Shown here: positions 17,587 to 50,713 of the stretch, piece by piece
Position numbering within the stretch: position 1 is the first letter of the stretch
Layout: each line of letters opens with the position of its first letter
Assembly: GCA_001001555.1 (NCBI GenBank)
Contig: LCKS01000004.1
Span: forward strand, 36,130 to 100,129
Length of the DNA: 64,000 nucleotides
Direction of reading: 5' to 3'
DNA from: Candidatus Amesbacteria bacterium GW2011_GWC2_45_19
GTDB lineage: Bacteria; Patescibacteriota; Microgenomatia; CAZETR01; Amesbacteraceae
The notes under the pieces: generated by a model
Told to the model about the DNA's origin: nothing
The model's input: the letters and a program-made list of their open reading frames with translations, nothing else
Databases searched by the model: none
Translations under genes and position numbers: made by a program

Positions 17587-17610
17587 CTCCCTCTTAATCT
17601 AAGAGGGAGA
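17587..17610. repeat. palindromic hairpin TCTCCCTCTTA-atc-TAAGAGGGAGA overlapping the last codons and stop of the phosphoesterase gene (related to the CCCCCTCCTAA hairpin family)
   Basis: Perfect 10-bp stem; the minus strand reads ...SLLD* through it. Confidence 0.5.
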
Positions 17611-18100
17611 CGCTAGTATAACTGCTAGATAAGGTGTCATAAATTCCAAAAGATGCGGGAGCTAGTTTGCCGGAAATGATGCCGCAGATGGAGCCGGGGT
17701 TGGCAAGCAAAGTTTTGCCTACTTGCTCTTGATAGGCTTTGTGGGTGTGACCGTGGAAAACCGCGTCATAATCTCCCGTTCCGGCCAAAAGTTTGCCGAG
17801 TTTGGGATAATGACAGAAGGCGATTTTTTTACTTTCCAATTCTACTTCGGCAAATTCTTTGGTTAGAGGCCAAAGCTGGACAGCTTTTAATTTTTCGGAA
17901 ATGGCAAATTGATCCTCATCATTATTCCCAAAACAAGCATAAATTGGTAAGGCTGATTCGGCTAAAATTACAGCCGTAAATGGAGCGCAAAAGTCTCCGC
18001 AAAAAATTATGACCTCGCATTTTTGCTCTTTGATTATTTGAATCGCCTTCCGCAGGTTCCAAATATGATCGTGGGTATCTGATAAAACTGCTATTTTCAT
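17594..18100 (-). CDS. metallophosphoesterase (YfcE/MJ0936 family)
   Basis: MKIAVLSDTHD...GDF...GNND...GHTH motif set. Confidence 0.75.
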   Translation of the reverse strand: MKIAVLSDTHDHIWNLRKAIQIIKEQKCEVIIFCGDFCAPFTAVILAESALPIYACFGNNDEDQFAISEKLKAVQLWPLTKEFAEVELESKKIAFCHYPKLGKLLAGTGDYDAVFHGHTHKAYQEQVGKTLLANPGSICGIISGKLAPASFGIYDTLSSSYTSVSLLD

Positions 18101-22671: not shown

Positions 22672-23421
22672 TTAGGAAACGGTGGTGCCGGAAAAGACTT
22701 TGGGGGTGTACCAATCGGGAGACGGGTTAGTTGGTTCTTGGTTATTGGTTATCTGCGAGTTACTTGGTTCTGGAGTGAAGCCGTCGTGGCGGCGGGCACC
22801 CTGGCGCATAAGAACTGCGGCGATTTCAAAAGTATCGGCCGTGACATTAGCCGTAAAATTGGAGGTAGATTTTTCCAGTCCGGCTAAGAGATTAGAGGCG
22901 GCATCATTAGAAATAGGGAGCTTGAGAGTTTCGAGAAGGCGGGTGACTTCCTCGGATCCAGCCAGAGAAAAGTGTTTGGTTTGAGCAAAAACTTCCGGAA
23001 CTTCCGCTCCGGCCACCAGAATGATCAGATCGGCCTGGGCGCCGCCAGAGATGAAATTTAATTTGCGGTGGTCAAGACCGGGGGTGTTGGGTTTGGGAGT
23101 GATAACTAAATTCAGCTCCCCCCTATCATCTAAATGATAACTGACTTTATCCACAATTTCCGTCTGGCCGGGAAAGGTGATCACCAGGTTGCGGCTGCCA
23201 AAGTTAGAAATGACCGTATCTGCTCCCACTAAGCGGTGAAATTCCACGGTCATGGGATCGGCACAGGTCACAGAGGCGGGTTTGCCGAACTGATCCAGGG
23301 AGAGTTTGAGAGCCAGGGCGGCGGCCACGGCATCATAGCCAGGGTTTTGGGGAAGAAGAATGGCTACCGAACGGGCAGAATCCAGCAGGCCCTTAAATTG
23401 ATTGGTATCAACTGGCGCCAT
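22672..23421 (-). CDS. DHH-family (NrnA-like) domain protein with degenerate catalytic motifs
   Basis: Occupies the nrnA-like slot between infB and rpsO; AILLPQNPGYDAVAAALAL resembles DHH motif I but lacks the Asp residues and the DHH triad. Confidence 0.35.
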   Translation of the reverse strand: MAPVDTNQFKGLLDSARSVAILLPQNPGYDAVAAALALKLSLDQFGKPASVTCADPMTVEFHRLVGADTVISNFGSRNLVITFPGQTEIVDKVSYHLDDRGELNLVITPKPNTPGLDHRKLNFISGGAQADLIILVAGAEVPEVFAQTKHFSLAGSEEVTRLLETLKLPISNDAASNLLAGLEKSTSNFTANVTADTFEIAAVLMRQGARRHDGFTPEPSNSQITNNQEPTNPSPDWYTPKVFSGTTVS

Positions 23422-24796
23422 GGATAGTGACGGCTATTATAATATCACCGGTCTTGAAGTCAACTGGCGGAGAAAAAACGGCCCCGAATTCCTGGCCGGT
23501 TTTAATTTTTTCAACTTCGGCTTTGCCAATTTTAAGAGATTTTATTTTGGTAATTTTGTCACCGATTTTGATCGAGTTGGTTTTGAGTATTTCTCCTTCG
23601 GTGCATTTACCCCCGGCCACCCGTAGATTGTCTATTTTGAACCCGGCCAGAATCTGGGCCCGGCCGGTAATGGTTTCGGTCTCTTGAGGATGGACTAATT
23701 TTTCTATGGCATCTAAAAGCTCATAAATAACATTAAAAGAGTGGATTTTAACTTTGTCTATTTCGGCTAGTTTGGCGGTGGAGCCGGGAATTTTGACATT
23801 AAAAGCAATTATTTGAGAATTTGTGGAAGTGGCAAAAAGAATGTCAGATTCGGTAACTTCGCCAGTAGCTGACGAAATTAGATTGACTTCCGGGGGTAAC
23901 AAAGAAGTAATGGCCTCAAGAGAACCGAGAGTGTCGGCTTTGAGGATAATTTTGACTATATCACCCTCTCCCTTCGGCCTGCCTGCCGGCAAGGCAGGGT
24001 TTCCCCCTCTTAAATTAAGAGGGGGAACGAAAGGGGGTGATATTTTAGTGATAGCAGAACTTAGTACAGACCCTACAGGGACGACGGAAGTGAGGCCGAG
24101 AATTTCGACGGGGGTAGAAGGCAGAGCAGGATTGACAGACAGGGCCTTGGCTTTACCGACCAATTTGTCTGAAAATAGCTCCTGGCCAACTTTTAAAGTA
24201 CCGTTTTTGACGATGCACATAGCCAAAGGGCCGCGGCGGGTATCCAAGTGAGATTCAAGAACAATACACTCTAGAGAGCCGGAAGGGTCGGAGACTGGAG
24301 GTTGGAGGCTAGAAACTAGATGGACCATCTCCAAAAGTTCAGGCAAGCCCTGGCCGGTTTTGGCAGAAACGGGAATGGCAGGTACGTCACCTCCAAACCC
24401 TTCGACTAAAACTGCGTTTTCAACCAATTGGGATTTGACGGTGTCTGCGGAGGCCCCGGGAAGGTCCATTTTATTAATAGCCACAATCATGGGAATACCG
24501 GCTGATTTAATGGTGGCTATAGATTCTTTGGTCTGGGGCATGACCCCGTCTACGGCGGAAATTACCAAAATAGCAATGTCGGCAATATCAGCTCCCCGGC
24601 TGCGCATTTGAGAAAAAGCAGCGTGTCCCGGCGTGTCGATGAAAGTGATACCGTTCGTCTGGAAAGCGTGAGTGCTTTGGGTTATACCCCCGACTTCACG
24701 AGAGGCGATGTTGGTTTTACACAGAGCATCAAGAAGAAAAGTTTTGCCATGATCTACATGGCCCAAAATGACAACGATAGGTGGTCTGGTTTGCAT
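23408..24796 (-). CDS. infB: translation initiation factor IF-2 (short form starting at the G domain)
   Basis: [28 protein letters not shown] GTPase motifs; 462 aa. Confidence 0.85.
   Translation of the reverse strand: MQTRPPIVVILGHVDHGKTFLLDALCKTNIASREVGGITQSTHAFQTNGITFIDTPGHAAFSQMRSRGADIADIAILVISAVDGVMPQTKESIATIKSAGIPMIVAINKMDLPGASADTVKSQLVENAVLVEGFGGDVPAIPVSAKTGQGLPELLEMVHLVSSLQPPVSDPSGSLECIVLESHLDTRRGPLAMCIVKNGTLKVGQELFSDKLVGKAKALSVNPALPSTPVEILGLTSVVPVGSVLSSAITKISPPFVPPLNLRGGNPALPAGRPKGEGDIVKIILKADTLGSLEAITSLLPPEVNLISSATGEVTESDILFATSTNSQIIAFNVKIPGSTAKLAEIDKVKIHSFNVIYELLDAIEKLVHPQETETITGRAQILAGFKIDNLRVAGGKCTEGEILKTNSIKIGDKITKIKSLKIGKAEVEKIKTGQEFGAVFSPPVDFKTGDIIIAVTIHGAS
23939..24022. mobile_element. 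RPE-like nested palindromic element (TIR TATCACCC/GGGTGATA; inner hairpin CCCCCTCTTAA-tt-TAAGAGGGGG plus CCTGCC-GGCAA-GGCAGG) inserted in-frame within infB
   Basis: About 84 bp (28 codons). Translated within IF2 as ...VPPLNLRGGNPALPAGRPKGEGDIV. A homologous element lies in grpE. Confidence 0.55.
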
Positions 24797-25801: not shown

Positions 25802-25841
25802 TATACCACCCCCACCCTCCCCCTCCTAATCTAGGAGGGGG
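25802..25841. repeat. left inverted repeat TATACCACCCCCACCCTCCCCCTCCTAATCTAGGAGGGGG (contains hairpin CCCCCTCCTAA-tc-TAGGAGGGGG)
   Basis: Inverted partner at 27011..27048; the hairpin overlaps the DUF559 stop (..LTPS*). Confidence 0.6.
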
Positions 25842-26190
25842 TAAGTTCCTTTCTAATCTGGTCCACTACTTTGTCTAAATTGGACTGAACTTCCCAATTC
25901 CAAAATCTAATAACTTTGATGTTAAAAGCCCCTAGATATCTGGTTCTATACGAATCATATTTATAATTTTGCTTGTGTTGCTCGCCATCGAGTTCTATGG
26001 CAAGTTTTTTCTCCGGACAGTAAAAGTCCAAAATATAAAATGTTACACTGTGCTGTCGGCGAAACTTAAAGCCGAGGCGGCTATTTTTCAACTTGCTCCA
26101 AAGCAACCTTTCTTCTCTAGTGCCATAGTTTCTTGACCTCCTTCGTTTTTGTTTGAGTTTAGGAGTATTAAAAATAAATTCTTTTCTCAT
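25831..26190 (-). CDS. DUF559 (Vsr/restriction-endonuclease-like fold) domain protein
   Basis: YILDFYCPEKKLAIELDGEQH core motif; AT-rich. Confidence 0.7.
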   Translation of the reverse strand: MRKEFIFNTPKLKQKRRRSRNYGTREERLLWSKLKNSRLGFKFRRQHSVTFYILDFYCPEKKLAIELDGEQHKQNYKYDSYRTRYLGAFNIKVIRFWNWEVQSNLDKVVDQIRKELTPS

Positions 26191-26260: not shown

Positions 26261-27022
26261 ATGGTCAGTCGTTTGTATTCCGCTATATATTTATTGGAAA
26301 AATTATCTAATTTGGGGGCCATGAAGGTTAATATGCAGTATTTAACGAAAGGTGGCCCGGAATTAAATCACTTTATCGATCGTCAGGCACACCCTGCTAG
26401 AAATGAATATCTTGATATATGCAACCTTAAAAGATTTGTTGAGAGTGGCGAATATGTGATCTCAAATAAATATGTATGTATTTCGACTACATTTGAAACT
26501 TCCGATGTCAAATATAAGGCTTTTATTGGTCTTGATGTGGAGATCGGCGATGAGAAAGTAGTGTTTAATGTTGCCAAGTTTCTCGCACATAAATTAGGTA
26601 AATCGATTGATGTATTTAAAACAACGCGCGGTTTCCACTTTTTTATTCCTGATTTGGTATTTTCTGGTGATTTTGAGTACTTAACGAAAATATTTGAAAT
26701 TGCGAACGATGCTTCTTTGCGGATTGGAGACAAGTGGGTCGCAGGATATTTTGACTGTGTAAAAAAAGCAAAAACTTATAAAGATTTACAACAAATTTCG
26801 CGAGAAATATTAAACAATTTCGGACACTATCAAGCCAGAGGAAAATACACCTTCTTTGACTTAAGACATATCGCTCATGGCATGTTCGAATATGAACGTC
26901 AGCGGGGTATTTCTGATCAGAATAATGGTGTTAGAACACAATTGTTTTTTAGAATAACATCCAAGAACCACAACGATCATCCTCCGGTGTTTATAAAACA
27001 GTTTATTTATTCCCCCTCCTAA
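26261..27022 (+). CDS. hypothetical protein, possible archaeo-eukaryotic primase-polymerase (PrimPol/AEP) domain
   Basis: IGLDVEIGDE (motif I DxE), then about 28 aa later TTRGFHFFIP (motif II sxGxH), then an acidic motif III candidate; AT-rich; start may be an internal Met. Confidence 0.35.
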   Translation: MVSRLYSAIYLLEKLSNLGAMKVNMQYLTKGGPELNHFIDRQAHPARNEYLDICNLKRFVESGEYVISNKYVCISTTFETSDVKYKAFIGLDVEIGDEKVVFNVAKFLAHKLGKSIDVFKTTRGFHFFIPDLVFSGDFEYLTKIFEIANDASLRIGDKWVAGYFDCVKKAKTYKDLQQISREILNNFGHYQARGKYTFFDLRHIAHGMFEYERQRGISDQNNGVRTQLFFRITSKNHNDHPPVFIKQFIYSPS

Positions 27023-27048
27023 GTTAGGAGGGGGACGAGGGGGTGGTA
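27011..27048. repeat. right inverted repeat (hairpin CCCCCTCCTAA-gtt-AGGAGGGGG, spacer ACGA, then GGGGGTGGTA)
   Basis: Its reverse complement TACCACCCCCTCGTCCCCCTCCTAACTTAGGAGGGGG matches the left repeat at 25802; the hairpin supplies the ...SPS* stop of the 253-aa ORF. Confidence 0.6.
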
Positions 27049-36065: not shown

Positions 36066-36090
36066 GAAAGTGCTTTCCGGCACTTTTTTT
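36066..36090 (+). terminator. terminator-like hairpin AAAGTGC-tttccg-GCACTTT followed by T7, immediately upstream of rplC start
   Basis: 7-bp perfect stem plus a TTTTTTT run on the plus strand; it could insulate the rp operon from antisense TA transcription, or attenuate. Confidence 0.4.
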
Positions 36091-36096
36091 GTGCAT

Positions 36097-36627
36097 ATGT
36101 TGAATACTATTTTTGCCAAAAAAAAGGAAATGACCATGAGATATACCTCCGATGGAAGGCAGGCGGGGGTAACTTTGCTTTCCATATTACCCACGACTGA
36201 TGCCGGGACACGTACTGTTGAAAAACACGGGTATGCCGCCCAAATTCTTAAAATTCAAATGACAAATAACAAATATCAAATAAAAGAAGTCCGCAACGTA
36301 AAAGAGGCGGACTTTTTAGTTGGGGATGTAGTGAAAGTAAGAGGAGTGTCTAAGGGCAAAGGGTTTGCCGGGGTGGTAAAAAGACACGGATTTGCCGGCG
36401 GACCCAGAACCCACGGCCAATCTGACCGCGAAAGAGCTCCCGGATCCATCGGACAAACGACCACTCCGGGACGGGTGTACCGGGGAAAGAGAATGGCGGG
36501 CAGAATGGGTGGAGAAACTGTGACCACAAAGGGGCTCAAAGTTTTGGATATTAACGAAAAAGAGATAGCGATTATTGGAGCGATACCGGGACACCGAGGA
36601 ACGCTGGTCAGGATTACAAAAATATGA
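36097..36627 (+). CDS. rplC: 50S ribosomal protein L3
   Basis: Start chosen at ATG MLNTIFAKKKEMTMRY (the track begins at an upstream GTG); GFAGGPRTHGQSDRE..GR L3 motifs. Confidence 0.85.
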   Translation: MLNTIFAKKKEMTMRYTSDGRQAGVTLLSILPTTDAGTRTVEKHGYAAQILKIQMTNNKYQIKEVRNVKEADFLVGDVVKVRGVSKGKGFAGVVKRHGFAGGPRTHGQSDRERAPGSIGQTTTPGRVYRGKRMAGRMGGETVTTKGLKVLDINEKEIAIIGAIPGHRGTLVRITKI

Positions 36628-47058: not shown

Positions 47059-47592
47059 ATGTTCAAAATATCGCGTTTGCATGTTTTTATCGCAACATCT
47101 TTGGGGGTAGGAGTTCTTATTGGATTTTTAATAGGGAGATATGTTAAGCCGAGGGTAGTTTATATAAAAAAAGAGAAAGAAAAGGTTGTCGTAAAATACG
47201 CTGAAGAAACAGCTGAAAACAGGATAATAAGATGTGGTTTCATCCCAGAAAATTTTAGGACAAACCAGGATCACTTTAGTGTAGTGTCAGGGCCCGATTG
47301 GTCCCCTGACTGCAGGTATATTGCTTGGGGTTTTTGGCAGTCGGGAACTTCATGGCTAGGAGATGATACTCAAGTTGTGTGGGAAAGAAAGTTGGATCAG
47401 CGGGAAGGTTTATATTTATACAACGATCGGACGGGGCGGACTAGAAAAATATACGCCCCTAAAGAACTAGATGAAAGCGTGACTTTTAACAAGTGGGTCG
47501 ATAGTGGTTCTATTGAGTTCGCTGCTAAAAGAATTGGGTATGTGTACGATATCGCGTCCGGTAAAATATCTATACAAGAAAATGGCTATTAG
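47059..47592 (+). CDS. hypothetical membrane-anchored protein
   Basis: Start at [29 protein letters not shown] (the track begins at an upstream TTG); TATAAT 7 nt upstream of the ATG; AT-rich; no motif. Confidence 0.45.
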
Positions 47593-49466
47593 TTTACTAC
47601 TTCCCCTTCCTCGGCTTTTTTGGCGTCGGCTGGTTTTTCTTCCGCGGGTTTTTCTTCTGTGGGAGGTGGGGTTTGCTTATACATTTCGGCCCCTAATTTT
47701 TGCAAAGAATCCATGAGGTCTTTGGATTTGGCTTCCAGATCTTCTTTGGTGCCGGATTCGAGAATATCTTTGAGAGCTTTTACTTTATCTTCTACCTCGG
47801 TTTTAAGTTCAGCCGGGGCTTTGTCGCCGGCATCTTTGAGAGTTTTTTCGGCGGTAAAAATTAAAGAATCTGCCTGGTTTTTGGATTCGATCTTGGTTTT
47901 CTTTTCGGCGTCTTCGGCGGCGTGGGCTTCGGCTTCTTTGCGCATTCTTTCCACTTCTTTTTCATCGAGGTTTGTGGAGTTGGTAATGGAAATGTGCTGC
48001 ATTTTGCTCGTAGCTTTGTCGAGGGCTTTGACATTAAGAATACCGGAGGCGTCAATATCGAAAGTAACTTCGATCTGGGGCACGCCACGGGGGGCAGGAG
48101 GAATACCATCCAGAATAAAGCGGCCGAGAGTTTTGTTATCCGCGGCCATGGGGCGTTCGCCCTGAAGGACGTGGATTTCGACGGAGGTCTGAGAATCAGC
48201 GGCGGTGGAAAAAACTTGAGATTTAGAAGTGGGAATAGTGGTATTCCTCTCTATAAGAGGGGTCATGACCGATCCGAGAGTCTCCAGCCCCAGGGTCAAA
48301 GGGGTGACGTCCAAAAGAACTACATCTTTGACATCGCCTGTGAGAACGCCGCCCTGAATGGCGGCGCCGACGGCCACCACTTCGTCGGGATTGACAGACT
48401 TGTTAGGCTCTTTGCCAAAGAATTTCTTGACCACTTCAATAACAGCCGGCATGCGGGTCATCCCGCCGACCAGGACCACTTCGTTAATTTTAGAAGTATC
48501 GATTTTGGCGTCCTTAAGACAGGCTTTAACTGGAGCAACGGTTTTTTGAATTAGGGAATCCACTAAAGCTTCTAATTTGGCCCGGGTGAGTTTGAGATTT
48601 AAATGCAGGGGTTGGCCGTTATTCTGAGTAATATACGGCTGATTGATCTCTGTTTCCATGGCCGAAGACAGTTCGATTTTGGCTTTCTCGGCGGCGTCGC
48701 GGACGCGCTGCAGAGCTTGGGTGTCTTTTTTAAGGTCCACACCGTTATCTTTCTTGAACTCCGAAACTATCCAATCCATAATTACCTGGTCAAAATCGTC
48801 TCCCCCTAAGTGGGTGTCGCCGTTGGTGGCTTTGACTTCAAAAACGCCGTCGCCCAGTTCGAGGACGGAAATGTCAAAAGTACCGCCACCCAGATCATAG
48901 ACGGCCACGGTGTGGGCATTTTTCTTGTCCAGACCGTAAGCCAGGGCCGCGGCGGTGGGTTCATTAATTATTCTTTCGACTTTCAGGCCGGCGATTTCCC
49001 CGGCTTGCTTGGTAGCTTGGCGCTGGGAGTCATCAAAATAAGCTGGGACGGTAATCACGGCCCGGTCGACGGTGCCACCCAGGTAAGACTCGGCGTGGGC
49101 TTTCATGATTTGCAGAATCTTGGCGGAGATTTCCTGGGGAGTGTAAGTCTTACCTTCGACCTCGACGCAAGCCATATTGTCTTTGCCGGCCACGATTTTG
49201 TAGGGCACCATTTCCATGGTGCGCTTGACTTCGGGGTCGGAAAACTTGCGGCCCATCAAACGTTTGATGGAGTAGATAGTGTTTTTGGAATTTAAGATCA
49301 TCTGGCGTTTGGCGACTTCGCCCACCAGATTTTTGACCGGTTCCACAATAGAGGGGGTGGTGTTGCGGCCGGTGTCCGCAGCGGGGATAACCTTGGGAGT
49401 CCCCCCCTCCATAACGGCCACACAGCTATTAGTGGTCCCCAAATCAATTCCGATTATCTTTGACAT
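47589..49466 (-). CDS. dnaK: molecular chaperone DnaK (Hsp70)
   Basis: [22 protein letters not shown], Hsp70 signatures; 625 aa. Confidence 0.95.
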
Positions 49467-49962
49467 ATGCTTTTATTTTAGCGGGTCTAATAACATAATT
49501 GTTAATTTTATAACCTTTAGTGACTATTTCTGCAATAGTATTATCGGGCTCTCCCGGCAAAGTTTCAAGACATTCGTGTATCTCGTGATTATATGAATCG
49601 CCTATTTTGGGAGAAATTTCCTGCAGACCTTCGGCTGTCAAGACGTCTCGAAATTGCTTAACGGCCATTTGCACCCCCTGATCTTGGGAGTGGATGGCGG
49701 CCAACTCCAAAACGTCTAGAGTGGGCAGAAGTTTGGCCATAATATTAGCCGTGGCGTAAGTGACAAAGTCTTTTTTGTCAGCGTCAACACGTTTAACCAG
49801 ATTATGATAATCAGCTAAGGCCCGTTTCCAGTTTTCTGTAAGGGTTTTAACCGTATCACCCTCGGCCTGCGGGCCACCCCCTCTTAAATCGAGCCTTGGG
49901 CTCGCGTCTGACGCCGTAAGAGGGGGATGGGGGGTGATATTGGGTGATTTTTTAGTCTTCAT
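49444..49962 (-). CDS. grpE: nucleotide exchange factor GrpE (N-terminal region carries in-frame palindromic element)
   Basis: [18 protein letters not shown]...; sits between hrcA and dnaK. Confidence 0.8.
49854..49939. mobile_element. RPE-like nested palindromic element (TIR TATCACCC/GGGTGATA, inner hairpin CCCCCTCTTA..TAAGAGGGGG) within grpE coding sequence
   Basis: Translated as ...[27 protein letters not shown]; homologous to the infB copy at 23939. Confidence 0.55.
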
Positions 49963-49969
49963 TTTTTGA

Positions 49970-50713
49970 TTACCAGCCAGAAGTCATTCCAGAAACCAGT
50001 TCAGAGAAATAACGCAAGGTGGGCAAAACGACGGGAAAATTGAGACGGCAGGGACCGATGAGTCCCAAAATGCCCCGACGGCCGGAGCCGGCAGCAAAAG
50101 GCGTAAAAGCAAAACCGACCGGCTCGAAATAATCTCCCCAACCCAGATCCTGCCCAAAAACGATATGCACTGTTTCGGCGGGGTCATATTGGCGGTCAAA
50201 AAACAGCTGGCGGATGCGAGTTTCCTGATCTAAAAGAGTCAGCACGGTGCGGGTCACGTCAATATCGTAAAACTCGGGAGTAGAAAGAATGTTGGCTGTC
50301 CCGGCATAATACACATCGCCGGCGTCGGTGACGGCTACGGACAGATTTTTGGTGCGGTCAGCCAGGGCCAAGGTGGTATGGCGCATCAGGCGGTCAAAAT
50401 CGAAACGGGAGTCCCAAACTTTTTCTTTGGCGGCCACTTCCTCCGTCACAGACATCTTTTTCTCTTGCATGAGGTGGCCGATGTAAAAGCGCAGAGCTTC
50501 CGGGGTAGGCACCCGGCCGGCAGAGGTATGGAGTTGTTTTAACAGACCCACCTCGGTCAGAGCGGCCATTTCGTTACGAATGGTGGCCGGGGAAACACCT
50601 AGGGAATATTTACGGTCCAGAACTTCGCTGCCTACCGCTTCGGCGGTGTTGATATATTCCTCGATCAGACATTTAAGGATCCGGATCTGGCGGGTAGTAA
50701 GGTTGGTGTCCAT
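49970..50713 (-). CDS. hrcA: heat-inducible transcription repressor HrcA
   Basis: N-terminal wHTH TTRQIRILKCLIEEY; 247 aa; upstream of grpE-dnaK. Confidence 0.85.
   Translation of the reverse strand: MDTNLTTRQIRILKCLIEEYINTAEAVGSEVLDRKYSLGVSPATIRNEMAALTEVGLLKQLHTSAGRVPTPEALRFYIGHLMQEKKMSVTEEVAAKEKVWDSRFDFDRLMRHTTLALADRTKNLSVAVTDAGDVYYAGTANILSTPEFYDIDVTRTVLTLLDQETRIRQLFFDRQYDPAETVHIVFGQDLGWGDYFEPVGFAFTPFAAGSGRRGILGLIGPCRLNFPVVLPTLRYFSELVSGMTSGW

What the first reader, a model, noticed from the sequence alone, without database searches (positions are those of the whole stretch)
49854..49939. Second copy of the palindromic element inside the grpE N-terminal region
The sequence is TATCACCCCCCATCCCCCTCTTA, a loop with its own palindrome, then TAAGAGGGGGTGGCCCGCAGGCCGAGGGTGATA. 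The ends (TATCACCCC and CAGGCCGA.GGG.GAGGGTGATA) match the infB copy; the centre is variable. It is translated as [27 protein letters not shown] in the unstructured N-terminal tail of GrpE. Two independent in-frame copies in essential genes make a real element family likely.
Basis: seen in the sequence. Interest (0 to 1): 0.7.

Follow-up and report, generated by a model that had tools for sequence, protein, structure and literature searches.

The report
Selfish hairpin DNA translated inside GrpE
An 86-base hairpin-forming piece of selfish DNA sits in frame in the floppy N-terminal tail of the GrpE chaperone gene of a Candidatus Amesbacteria genome; it belongs to a large, apparently undescribed family of such inserts found in several bacterial phyla, and the inserts look like stripped-down copies of a small cassette that encodes a DUF559 nuclease.

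Summary
Window 49854-49939 is an 86-nt nested palindrome. It has an outer stem TATCACCC/GGGTGATA, a central stem CCCCCTCTTA/TAAGAGGGGG, a side hairpin and two mini-hairpins in the loop. It lies in frame at codons 8-36 of grpE. A sister copy (23959-24042) lies in the infB inter-domain linker.

The closest GrpE relatives (88% identical) lack the insert. Three lineages share it at this site: the outer 58 nt are 98% identical, while grpE third-codon identity is only 42-59%.

Two capped pattern scans each returned about 120 loci. The hairpin-plus-tail core occurs in CPR bacteria, Geobacter, Bacteroidota, Nitrospirota and others. About half of the full-length mini copies lie in frame inside genes such as leuS, def, fmt and infB.

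The only gene family recurrently next to the motif is a roughly 120-aa DUF559 endonuclease. Its nearest characterised fold is the homing endonuclease I-Bth0305I. In Amesbacteria the same ends bracket this gene, the window carries one (25831-26190), and one Saccharibacteria LeuRS carries the whole nuclease in frame where a relative has a mini copy.

Best reading: a non-autonomous derivative of a nuclease-encoding selfish cassette, comparable to Rickettsia palindromic elements. The mobility mechanism is inferred, not shown.

The parts
49854..49939 (-). 86-nt nested-palindrome element, in frame in grpE (codons 8-36). Layout on the + strand: outer arm TATCACCC 49854-49861; side hairpin GGCCTGCGGGCC 49864-49875; central arm CCCCCTCTTA 49877-49886; loop with two mini-hairpins 49887-49916; central arm TAAGAGGGGG 49917-49926; outer arm GGGGTGATA 49931-49939.
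   Evidence: fold -44 kcal/mol, z -4.65. The insert is absent from the closest GrpE orthologues.
49444..49962 (-). grpE (172 aa), the host gene. It lies between hrcA (49970-50713) and dnaK (47589-49466).
   Evidence: 100% hit to GrpE of Candidatus Amesbacteria GW2011_GWB1_47_26. In the AlphaFold model residues 1-30 are low-confidence coil and the helix starts at residue 31.
23959..24042 (-). 84-nt sister element, in frame in infB (23408-24796), in the linker between domain II and the IF-2 domain (aa 252-279). It is the common 63-nt form plus a 21-nt extension of the side hairpin (23978-23998).
   Evidence: Pfam domains 176-247 and 277-365 flank it; IF2 relatives with no element, or with simpler or other types.
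25831..26190 (-). DUF559 (Vsr-like PD-(D/E)XK) endonuclease gene, 119 aa. This is the candidate protein-coding partner of the element family.
   Evidence: Pfam PF04480 E = 1.9e-32. PDB 3HRL E = 1.6e-18. Fold matches 3HRL, then the homing endonuclease I-Bth0305I. Active-site columns D55, E66, D68, H72 are invariant in 40 homologues.
25804..25841 (-). Element end attached to the DUF559 gene. The hairpin CCCCCTCCTA-GAT-TAGGAGGGGG contains the gene's stop codon and is followed by GGGGGTGGTA (the CTCCTA/GTGGTA subtype).
27011..27048 (+). Half element (hairpin TCCCCCTCCTAA-G-TTAGGAGGGGGA, then GGGGGTGGTA) that supplies the stop codon of ORF 26261-27022.
17587..17609 (-). Degenerate solo hairpin CTCCCTCTTA-ATC-TAAGAGGGAG. 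It overlaps the stop codon of a metallophosphoesterase gene (17594-18100) and lies just upstream of the next gene.

Best explanation
The 86-nt segment is a copy of a small mobile, or formerly mobile, palindromic DNA element. It landed in grpE and survives there for three reasons: it is read in the one stop-free frame, it keeps the reading frame, and it sits in the disordered N-terminal tail. It is therefore translated as about 28 extra residues with no required role in GrpE.

The element is a miniature, non-autonomous form of a cassette with this layout: TAYCACCCC, side hairpin, hairpin CCCCTCYTA..TARGAGGGG, [DUF559 endonuclease ORF], hairpin, spacer, GGGGTGRTA. Losing the ORF between the two identical hairpins gives exactly the mini layout.

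Proposed mechanism (inferred). The DUF559 nuclease, a homing-endonuclease-like Vsr-fold enzyme, cuts at or near the hairpin/cruciform of resident copies. Repair from other copies then spreads the cassette, swaps and homogenises copies, and moves loop modules. Occasional ectopic integration, apparently at TA, seeds new sites. Selection removes every genic insertion except in-frame ones in tolerant loops.

Status of each step. Shown: anatomy, family membership, insertion polymorphism, translated frame, physical linkage to DUF559. Inferred: that DUF559 is the mobilising enzyme, its cut site, and the route of ectopic insertion.
For: Insertion, not ancestral tail. The closest GrpE orthologues lack it.

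Family.
- The window holds 2 full and 3 partial copies.
- The 84-nt infB variant recurs in a different gene in L162/L230, so variants were copied as units.
- 28 of 62 full minis lie inside long ORFs, always in the PPL.LRGG frame. In each orientation the other two frames hit TAA in the central loop (read directly from the sequence).
- In-frame hosts include LeuRS, Def, Fmt, a UvrD-like helicase and IF2.

DUF559 link.
- It is the top recurrent neighbour in both locus sets: 15 and 12 loci by clustering, 17/118 and 15/120 by HMM.
- The geometry is fixed. In Amesbacteria-like contigs the same ends bracket the gene (L042, L130, L208, L191/197, L217, L168).
- The window has its own copy, with its stop codon inside the hairpin.
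- The nearest DUF559 homologues almost all end ...LPS*/TPS*, which places the stop codon in the hairpin.
- Of four contigs chosen by protein alone (L242, L244, L246, L247), three carry clear related hairpins next to the gene and the fourth (L246, Bacteroidota) only an imperfect one.
- Saccharibacteria LeuRS in L098 carries hairpin-DUF559-hairpin in frame at the site where L027 has a mini.
- The cassette is present or absent in the dnaJ-nusA spacer.
- The DUF559 model's best characterised fold match is the homing endonuclease I-Bth0305I.

Constraint or homogenisation.
- The outer 58 nt are 98.3% identical among three grpE lineages whose third-codon identity is 42-59%.
- The side hairpin and the loop mini-hairpins differ between copies by compensatory changes.

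Tolerance. The insert falls in low-pLDDT coil of GrpE and in an inter-domain linker of IF2.
Against: - No enzymatic evidence exists. PD-(D/E)XK nucleases cut but are not known to join DNA on their own, so insertion at non-homologous sites needs host repair or an unseen partner.
- No mini was found whose spacers exactly match a sampled DUF559 cassette.
- Target-site duplication is unresolved. TA at both ends is invariant and the empty sites are compatible with it, but the comparisons are between sequences 65-80% identical, and extra bases occur.
- Most sampled loci (about 86%) have no DUF559 within the fetched stretch. The loci were chosen by motif, so the association is partly biased, and the unbiased sample is small.
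- DUF559 genes are rare in the phage and plasmid collections, so the route between phyla is unclear.
- The 98% conservation could instead reflect a host-level function.
Confidence: 0.68

Rival explanations
1. This is a REP/REPIN- or IS200/IS605-type single-strand hairpin element, mobilised by a HUH (Y1) transposase such as a RAYT encoded once elsewhere in the genome. DUF559 genes are then merely frequent neighbours, because the hairpins accumulate around small horizontally acquired genes.
For: The unit is REP-sized: a 9-10-bp stem plus a conserved 9-mer a few nt away. Full copies resemble REP doublets. The hairpins show compensatory variation, as expected if the folded single strand is the substrate. 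Copies nest inside each other's loops.
Against: No transposase-like family recurs near the motif in either locus set; DUF559 is the only recurrent small gene. About half of the full copies are intragenic, unlike REPs. The same 9-mers occur across phyla, whereas, from general knowledge, REP sequences are species-specific. The ends bracket DUF559 in the way REPs bracket RAYT genes, but the enclosed gene is a PD-(D/E)XK nuclease.
Confidence: 0.12
2. The element is primarily a functional cis-acting module: a portable ribosome-binding site with a sequestering hairpin, a terminator, or an mRNA structure that tunes heat-shock gene translation. It is kept in grpE by selection on RNA structure.
For: The outer arms resemble the Shine-Dalgarno / anti-Shine-Dalgarno pair: GGGGTGATA or GGAGGTGATA against TATCACCCC, compared with the 16S 3' end GAUCACCUCC (general knowledge). 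Some copies sit with this arm 8-11 nt before start codons, for example dnaJ and DUF559. Nucleotide conservation is extreme relative to the host gene. Three window hairpins supply stop codons.
Against: Copies occur in both orientations, at unrelated positions inside many different proteins, and in intergenic DNA. Closest relatives do well without the grpE copy. The start-codon enrichment is modest (48 against 33 control hits). No Rfam family matches. Exaptation of some copies is compatible with the selfish-element reading.
Confidence: 0.1
3. The extra peptide is a selected functional extension of GrpE, for example a proline/glycine-rich linker, and the DNA palindrome is incidental.
For: The peptide motif ITP.PPL..LRGG..EGD is retained in three GrpE lineages.
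Against: The same DNA occurs in non-coding positions, in the opposite orientation where it encodes a different peptide (SPSPFGFPPLKLRGGTKGGD), and in unrelated proteins. Conservation is at nucleotide level and includes synonymous sites. The segment is predicted to be disordered.
Confidence: 0.03
4. The feature is a chance low-complexity similarity or an assembly artefact.
For: None beyond the G/C-run composition.
Against: Zero matches are expected against two observed. The identical protein is seen on 28 contigs from several sources. Orthologous copies occur in independent assemblies, and there are hundreds of family members.
Confidence: 0.01

Closest known systems
Rickettsia palindromic elements (RPEs; Ogata et al. 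2000, as summarised in PMC10969869)
   Same: Short palindromic selfish repeats, with a large fraction inserted in frame into unrelated housekeeping genes of a small-genome bacterium. They are translated as extra surface or loop peptides. No transposase lies inside the element.
   Different: Different taxon and sequence. These are shorter (54-96 nt against about 100-150 bp) and built from modular nested hairpins. The core motif is shared across several phyla. It is physically linked to a nuclease gene, whereas, to my knowledge, no protein partner is known for RPEs.
MITEs (e.g. Correia, ERIC, Nezha), non-autonomous derivatives of IS elements
   Same: Small and multi-copy, with terminal inverted repeats. 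The ends are shared with a longer protein-coding relative. There may be a TA target. Copies can provide regulatory signals or in-frame fusions (PMC10969869).
   Different: The coding relative carries a DUF559 PD-(D/E)XK nuclease rather than a DDE, serine or HUH transposase. The TIRs are only 8-10 bp. A target-site duplication is not demonstrated.
Homing endonuclease genes, especially I-Bth0305I (PDB 3R3P, Vsr-fold homing endonuclease family)
   Same: The DUF559 model superposes on the I-Bth0305I catalytic domain (TM 0.64/0.76, E = 9e-4). The nuclease gene sits inside its presumptive target (hairpin-ORF-hairpin). It is present or absent at the same site in orthologous genes (LeuRS L098 against L027; dnaJ-nusA spacer).
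   Different: There is no intron or intein context, and in L098 the domain is simply translated within LeuRS. The ORF-less hairpin elements are dispersed at many non-homologous sites, which classical homing does not produce. Cleavage specificity is unknown.
REP / REPIN elements with RAYT transposases
   Same: Hairpin plus a conserved short flanking motif. Doublets form larger hairpins. Inverted copies flank the associated gene. The stems show compensatory evolution.
   Different: The associated gene is not a Y1 HUH enzyme. Copies are often intragenic. The motif is shared between phyla.
Mitochondrial GC-cluster / 'byp' hairpin inserts in yeast coding genes (general knowledge)
   Same: Mobile GC-rich hairpins inside protein-coding genes.
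   Different: Byps are skipped by translational bypassing and need not be in frame. Here all 28 genic copies examined are open and in frame, so ordinary translation suffices.

Membership tests
MITE | Small (<~500 bp), multi-copy, no coding capacity for its own transposase | tested here: met
   Copies are 54-96 nt. Scans returned more than 118 and more than 120 loci, each capped.
MITE | Terminal inverted repeats | tested here: met
   TA(Y)CACCC(C) / (G)GGGTG(R)TA, 8-10 bp, in all full copies.
MITE | Target-site duplication | tested here: inconclusive
   TA is invariant at both ends. The empty sites upstream of dnaJ and in the dnaJ-nusA spacer contain a TA at the junction, but the alignments are between diverged sequences and show 1-6 extra bases.
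MITE | Shares its ends with an autonomous IS that encodes a transposase | tested here: not met
   The longer relative encodes a DUF559 nuclease, not a known transposase. No transposase family recurs nearby.
Rickettsia palindromic elements | Palindromic repeat inserted in frame in protein-coding genes and translated | tested here: met
   grpE, infB and 26 more genic copies are open in frame. Translation itself is inferred from intact ORFs.
Rickettsia palindromic elements | Sequence homology to one of the RPE families; Rickettsiales host | not tested
   The host is Candidatus Amesbacteria. No RPE sequences were available for comparison. Length and architecture differ, so this is treated as an analogue, not a member.
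REP/REPIN-RAYT | Extragenic location | tested here: not met
   28 of 62 full copies are intragenic.
REP/REPIN-RAYT | Associated Y1 (HUH) RAYT gene flanked by the repeats | tested here: not met
   The flanked gene is DUF559. No HUH-like cluster appears among the neighbours. Whole genomes could not be searched.
Homing endonuclease gene (Vsr-fold / I-Bth0305I-like) | Nuclease of the family fold with intact catalytic residues | tested here: met
   Foldseek 3R3P E = 9e-4, TM 0.64/0.76, and 3HRL E = 5.5e-7. D55, E66, D68 and H72 are invariant.
Homing endonuclease gene (Vsr-fold / I-Bth0305I-like) | Gene embedded in its own recognition site; presence/absence polymorphism at a fixed site | tested here: inconclusive
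   The layout hairpin-ORF-hairpin against a single hairpin is seen at the same LeuRS codon and in the dnaJ-nusA spacer. However, the two LeuRS inserts are of different subtypes, and the recognition site is unknown.
Homing endonuclease gene (Vsr-fold / I-Bth0305I-like) | Site-specific cleavage of the ORF-less allele | not testable with these tools
   This needs biochemistry.
Known structured RNA (Rfam) | Match to a curated covariance model | tested here: not met
   No hit at gathering score in the whole window, and only chance-level hits (E >= 0.84) in 49800-50000.

The most novel reading that the evidence does not exclude
DUF559 proteins, a very large family with no assigned function, are the mobility enzymes of a previously unrecognised class of hairpin-ended selfish elements that occurs in several bacterial phyla. 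The element ends mimic the Shine-Dalgarno / anti-Shine-Dalgarno pair. Its ORF-less derivatives colonise essential genes in frame and are homogenised by nuclease-driven gene conversion, which makes them a continuing source of new protein loops in CPR bacteria. In some cases the nuclease itself is translated inside an aminoacyl-tRNA synthetase.
Probability: 0.35. Interest if true: 0.85.

Novelty: new variant of a known kind. Interest (0 to 1): 0.68.

Why it matters
- It would give a role, as a selfish hairpin-targeting nuclease, to DUF559, a widespread family of unknown function with a solved but unexplained structure (3HRL).
- It would extend the 'protein-coding palindrome' phenomenon, so far essentially a Rickettsia curiosity, to the Candidate Phyla Radiation and to other phyla.
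- It explains recurrent odd peptides (PPL.LRGG, TTP.PS..RRG, etc.) in predicted proteins from metagenomes. These inflate protein lengths and mislead annotation: some DUF559 proteins are named 'leucyl-tRNA synthetase' by one source.
- It offers a tractable system for asking how new loops enter essential proteins.
- The extreme conservation of the insert relative to its host gene makes a concrete hypothesis, nuclease-driven homogenisation, directly testable.

Tried and rejected
- **Rfam.** Nothing in the whole window at gathering score, and only chance-level hits in the local E-value scan.
- **Literature.**
  - Searches for the motif strings, for palindromic in-frame elements in Patescibacteria, and for MITEs in CPR found no description of this family.
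  - The DUF559 search returned 25 papers, none describing it as mobile. One search failed on syntax.
- **Precise empty site for grpE.**
  - P0003 and P0046 orthologues lack the insert.
  - Their 5' ends are too diverged to fix the boundaries.
- **Precise empty site for infB.** The linker is hypervariable and carries other element types in relatives.
- **Flank-joining BLAST for empty sites.**
  - It gave usable pairs upstream of dnaJ, upstream of uvrB, in one coding gene, and at window ~36100.
  - All are between sequences 65-80% identical, so the TA duplication stays unproven.
- **Exact ORF-deletion derivative.** A search for an exact derivative of a sampled DUF559 cassette found none.
- **GIY-YIG genes.** Small GIY-YIG genes lie near a few copies, but the geometry is not consistent.
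- **Phage and plasmid carriage of DUF559.** It is rare.
- **Defence-system membership.** Only a weak PADLOC similarity to a methyl-directed restriction enzyme.
- **Translational bypass or splicing.** Considered and set aside, because every genic copy examined is open and in frame.
- **Portable Shine-Dalgarno idea.** There is a peak at 8-11 nt before start codons, but only a modest excess over control.

Full report
**Observation**

The window comes from Candidatus Amesbacteria bacterium GW2011_GWB1_47_26 (CPR/Microgenomates). Its GrpE is 100% identical to that record. grpE is 49444..49962 on the - strand, between hrcA and dnaK.

The pattern TATCACCC-N40-70-GGGTGATA occurs twice in 64 kb, here and at 23959-24042 in infB, with none expected in 100 shuffles.

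As RNA, the grpE copy folds at -44.0 kcal/mol (z = -4.65). The fold has an outer 8-bp stem, a 10-bp central stem with two mini-hairpins in its loop, and a side hairpin. The infB copy folds at -49.1 kcal/mol (z = -5.5).

**Is it an insertion?**

Yes.
- The closest GrpE relatives (P0003-P0011, 81-88% identical over the shared part, 138-141 aa) begin MAAKTTTKTLEENW, and P0046 begins MKTKKTDEIKTLNENW. The window protein has MKTKKSPN-[ITP...EGD]-TVKTLTENW.
- P0002 (L121) has the same element without the central-loop piece: 59 nt against 86 nt, a difference of 27 nt.
- P0014 (L250) has it with a different loop piece of the same length.
- AlphaFold places residues 1-30 in low-confidence coil, with the long GrpE helix starting at residue 31.
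- In IF2 the sister copy lies between Pfam domains 176-247 and 277-365.
- IF2 relatives carry either no element, the simple 63-nt form (P0122), a form with a loop module (P0123), or elements of other subtypes at that linker.

**Family**

The window holds two full copies and three partial ones (17587-17609, 25804-25841, 27011-27048). Each partial copy overlaps a gene's stop codon.

These come from Amesbacteria, Saccharibacteria, Kerfeldbacteria and Zambryskibacteria, but also from Geobacter/Desulfuromonadales, Nitrospirota, Ignavibacteria, Pedobacter (including a complete chromosome), Prevotellaceae/Muribaculaceae, KSB1 and others.

Two linked subtypes exist:
- CTCCTA/TAGGAG with GTGGTA: 107 copies.
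- CTCTTA/TAAGAG with GTGATA: 25 copies.
- Mixed: 3 copies. These counts are of copies, not independent events.

A metagenome scan for the CPR-type full element also hit its limit, at 120 loci. Full minis are 54-96 nt. The commonest form is a 61-63-nt consensus: TATCACCCTCTCCCTTCGGGTTTCCCCCTCTTAAATTAAGAGGGGGA-N5-GGGGGTGATA.

Of 62 full minis, 28 lie within long open frames, always read as ...PPL.LRGG.... The sequence itself explains this, because in either orientation the other two frames meet TAA in the TTAA-centred loop. Hosts include LeuRS (two sites), peptide deformylase, Fmt, a UvrD-like helicase, a PduO-type adenosyltransferase and IF2.

The 84-nt variant of the window's infB copy recurs in another gene in L162/L230, so variants propagate as units.

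The side hairpin varies by compensatory changes: GCC/GGC, GAC/GTC, CCC/GGG, GTCC/GGAC, GGCC/GGCC, GAAC/GTTC and others. So do the two mini-hairpins of the 27-30-nt loop modules: CGAGCC/GGCTCG, CGAGTC/GACTCG, CGAACC/GGTTCG.

**The nuclease link**

I clustered all ORFs within 1.2 kb of the motif in the 118 genome loci. One family stood out, in 15 loci from roughly ten phylum-level groups: a roughly 120-aa DUF559 protein (PF04480, E about 1e-31). The metagenome set gave the same top neighbour. An HMM finds it in 17/118 and 15/120 loci, and once in the window.

The geometry is fixed:
- In Amesbacteria-like contigs: TATCACCCC, side hairpin, CCCCTCTTAAnTTAAGAGGGG, AAATT, about 20 nt, ATG...DUF559..., CCCCTCTTAAaTTAAGAGGGG, 8 nt, GGGGTGATA. 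This is a mini element with the gene placed between two copies of the central hairpin.
- In other phyla, and in some CPR loci, the gene lies between two full or half elements, with GGGGTGGTA 0-10 nt before the start codon and ACCACCCC-hairpin over the stop codon.

Further support:
- The window's own DUF559 gene (25831-26190, next to nusA and 1.8 kb from the infB insert) ends inside such a hairpin, followed by GGGGGTGGTA.
- The nearest DUF559 homologues retrieved by protein search almost all end ...LPS*/TPS*, which places the stop codon in the hairpin.
- Of four contigs chosen by protein alone, three carry clear related hairpins beside the gene, and the fourth (L246, Bacteroidota) only an imperfect one.
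- In Saccharibacteria L098, LeuRS carries hairpin-DUF559-hairpin translated in frame (about 150 aa) between RSEGAEIEF and FTTRADT. That is exactly where L027's LeuRS carries a mini element.
- The cassette is present in the dnaJ-nusA spacer of L042/L242 and absent in L252, where the spacer is 16 nt. The window keeps the same nusA leader downstream of its cassette.
- The DUF559 model (pLDDT 89) matches 3HRL, then the homing endonuclease I-Bth0305I (E = 9e-4, TM 0.64/0.76), and Vsr only weakly. The catalytic-type residues are invariant.

**Conservation**

Among the three grpE lineages, the outer 58 nt of the element are 98.3% identical. The downstream 330 nt of grpE are 67-79% identical, with third-codon identity of 42-59%. 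All three copies differ at a single unpaired position.

The element is therefore either under nucleotide-level constraint, or homogenised from other copies, or re-acquired at the same site.

**Insertion sites**

Filled and empty alleles were found upstream of dnaJ, upstream of uvrB, inside a coding gene, and at an intergenic site that is empty in the window near 36100.

The junctions are compatible with insertion at a TA. For example...CCAG TA CAACTATG is the empty form and ...CCAG TA[TCACC...GGTGA]TA TTTATG the filled form. Likewise TGA|TA|AAATTGG against TAA|TA|[...]|TA|TAAATGG. The compared sequences are diverged and extra bases occur, so a TA duplication is plausible but not shown.

**Best explanation and rivals**

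- The grpE segment is a non-autonomous, ORF-less derivative of a DUF559-encoding selfish cassette, tolerated and translated in a disordered tail (confidence about 0.68 for this composite).
- Within that composite, being a selfish, inserted and translated family member is near certain.
- The derivation from DUF559 cassettes is likely.
- Nuclease-driven copying is inference.
- Rivals are a REP/RAYT-like single-strand system (0.12), a primarily regulatory RNA/RBS module (0.10), a selected peptide (0.03) and chance or artefact (0.01).

**Comparison with what is known**

- It works like Rickettsia palindromic elements (PMC10969869) and like MITEs.
- It fails the MITE criterion of a transposase-encoding parent.
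- It fails the REP criteria of extragenic location and a RAYT partner.
- The gene-in-target layout and the fold resemble homing endonuclease genes, but dispersed ORF-less copies are not classical homing.
- No paper in the searchable library describes this family or a mobile role for DUF559.
- I therefore rate it a new variant of a known kind.

**Limits**

- Both collection scans were pattern-defined and capped, so counts are samples and not censuses.
- The DUF559 association is measured mostly on motif-selected loci.
- No whole genome could be searched for other recombinases.
- Nothing here tests enzymatic activity or translation directly.

Noticed in passing
L098:391-2911 (Saccharibacteria contig CAYXQM010000094.1), aa 250-398 of the open frame: LeuRS carries a complete DUF559 endonuclease domain with hairpin-encoded flanks, translated in frame at the entry to the editing domain. 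L027 LeuRS has a mini element at the same codon. One source names a free-standing 110-aa DUF559 protein 'leucyl-tRNA synthetase' and another 'MetH', which suggests such fusions exist in reference sets.
   Followed up: partly
window 24042-23959 region; IF2 homologues P0121-P0149: The IF2 inter-domain linker is a hot spot. Relatives carry at least four different element subtypes or loop variants at this position (PPLNLRGG, SPSFPSPKVGEGRKGEV, TTPQSPPT..LGGEARQGGEV, ITSPPPL..NLRGGVGGGDI), and others carry none.
   Followed up: partly
L089:7765-7826, L159:5246-5307, L195:634-723; 284 hairpin-tail units overall: The G-rich outer arm (GGGGTGATA or GGAGGTGATA) resembles an extended Shine-Dalgarno sequence, and the opposite arm resembles the 16S 3' end. 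In 30 units the arm ends 8-11 nt before the start codon of a long ORF. Upstream of dnaJ the arm ends 3 nt before the ATG. This may be a portable ribosome-binding site with built-in sequestration.
   Followed up: partly
window 26261-27022 (+): A 253-aa ORF with no Pfam, NCBIfam or PADLOC match lies divergent from the DUF559 gene. Its last codons and stop codon are supplied by a half element (27011-27048).
   Followed up: partly
window ~36090-36110: This intergenic site, just after a terminator-like hairpin, is empty in the window but carries a 61-nt full element plus about 24 extra nt in the related contig L136 (6242-6303).
   Followed up: partly
L074, L081, L084, L104, L106 (Geobacteraceae / Deltaproteobacteria): The central loop of the Geobacter-type hairpin carries a conserved 26-nt module (TTTCGCTTAGAAGCGCCTACTTCTGG) in five loci from different genomes. 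It is analogous to the CPR loop modules.
   Followed up: no
GrpE homologues P0027, P0040, P0092 (C-termini): Some GrpE relatives have extra C-terminal tails (..DLHPERQSKDQL..DFHPEPVEGLD..NIHSEPVASDATQSRDPQL). These look like read-through into a different repeat at the 3' end of the gene.
   Followed up: no
L133:3697-4036, L137:1351-1624, L237:931-1192: Small GIY-YIG nuclease genes lie within a few hundred nt of some element copies, but without a consistent geometry.
   Followed up: partly
L042:1298-1345: The right end of the CTCTTA/GTGATA-type DUF559 cassette is followed 5 nt later by a GGGGTGGTA arm of the other subtype. This suggests that one element inserted next to, or into, an older one.
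   Followed up: no
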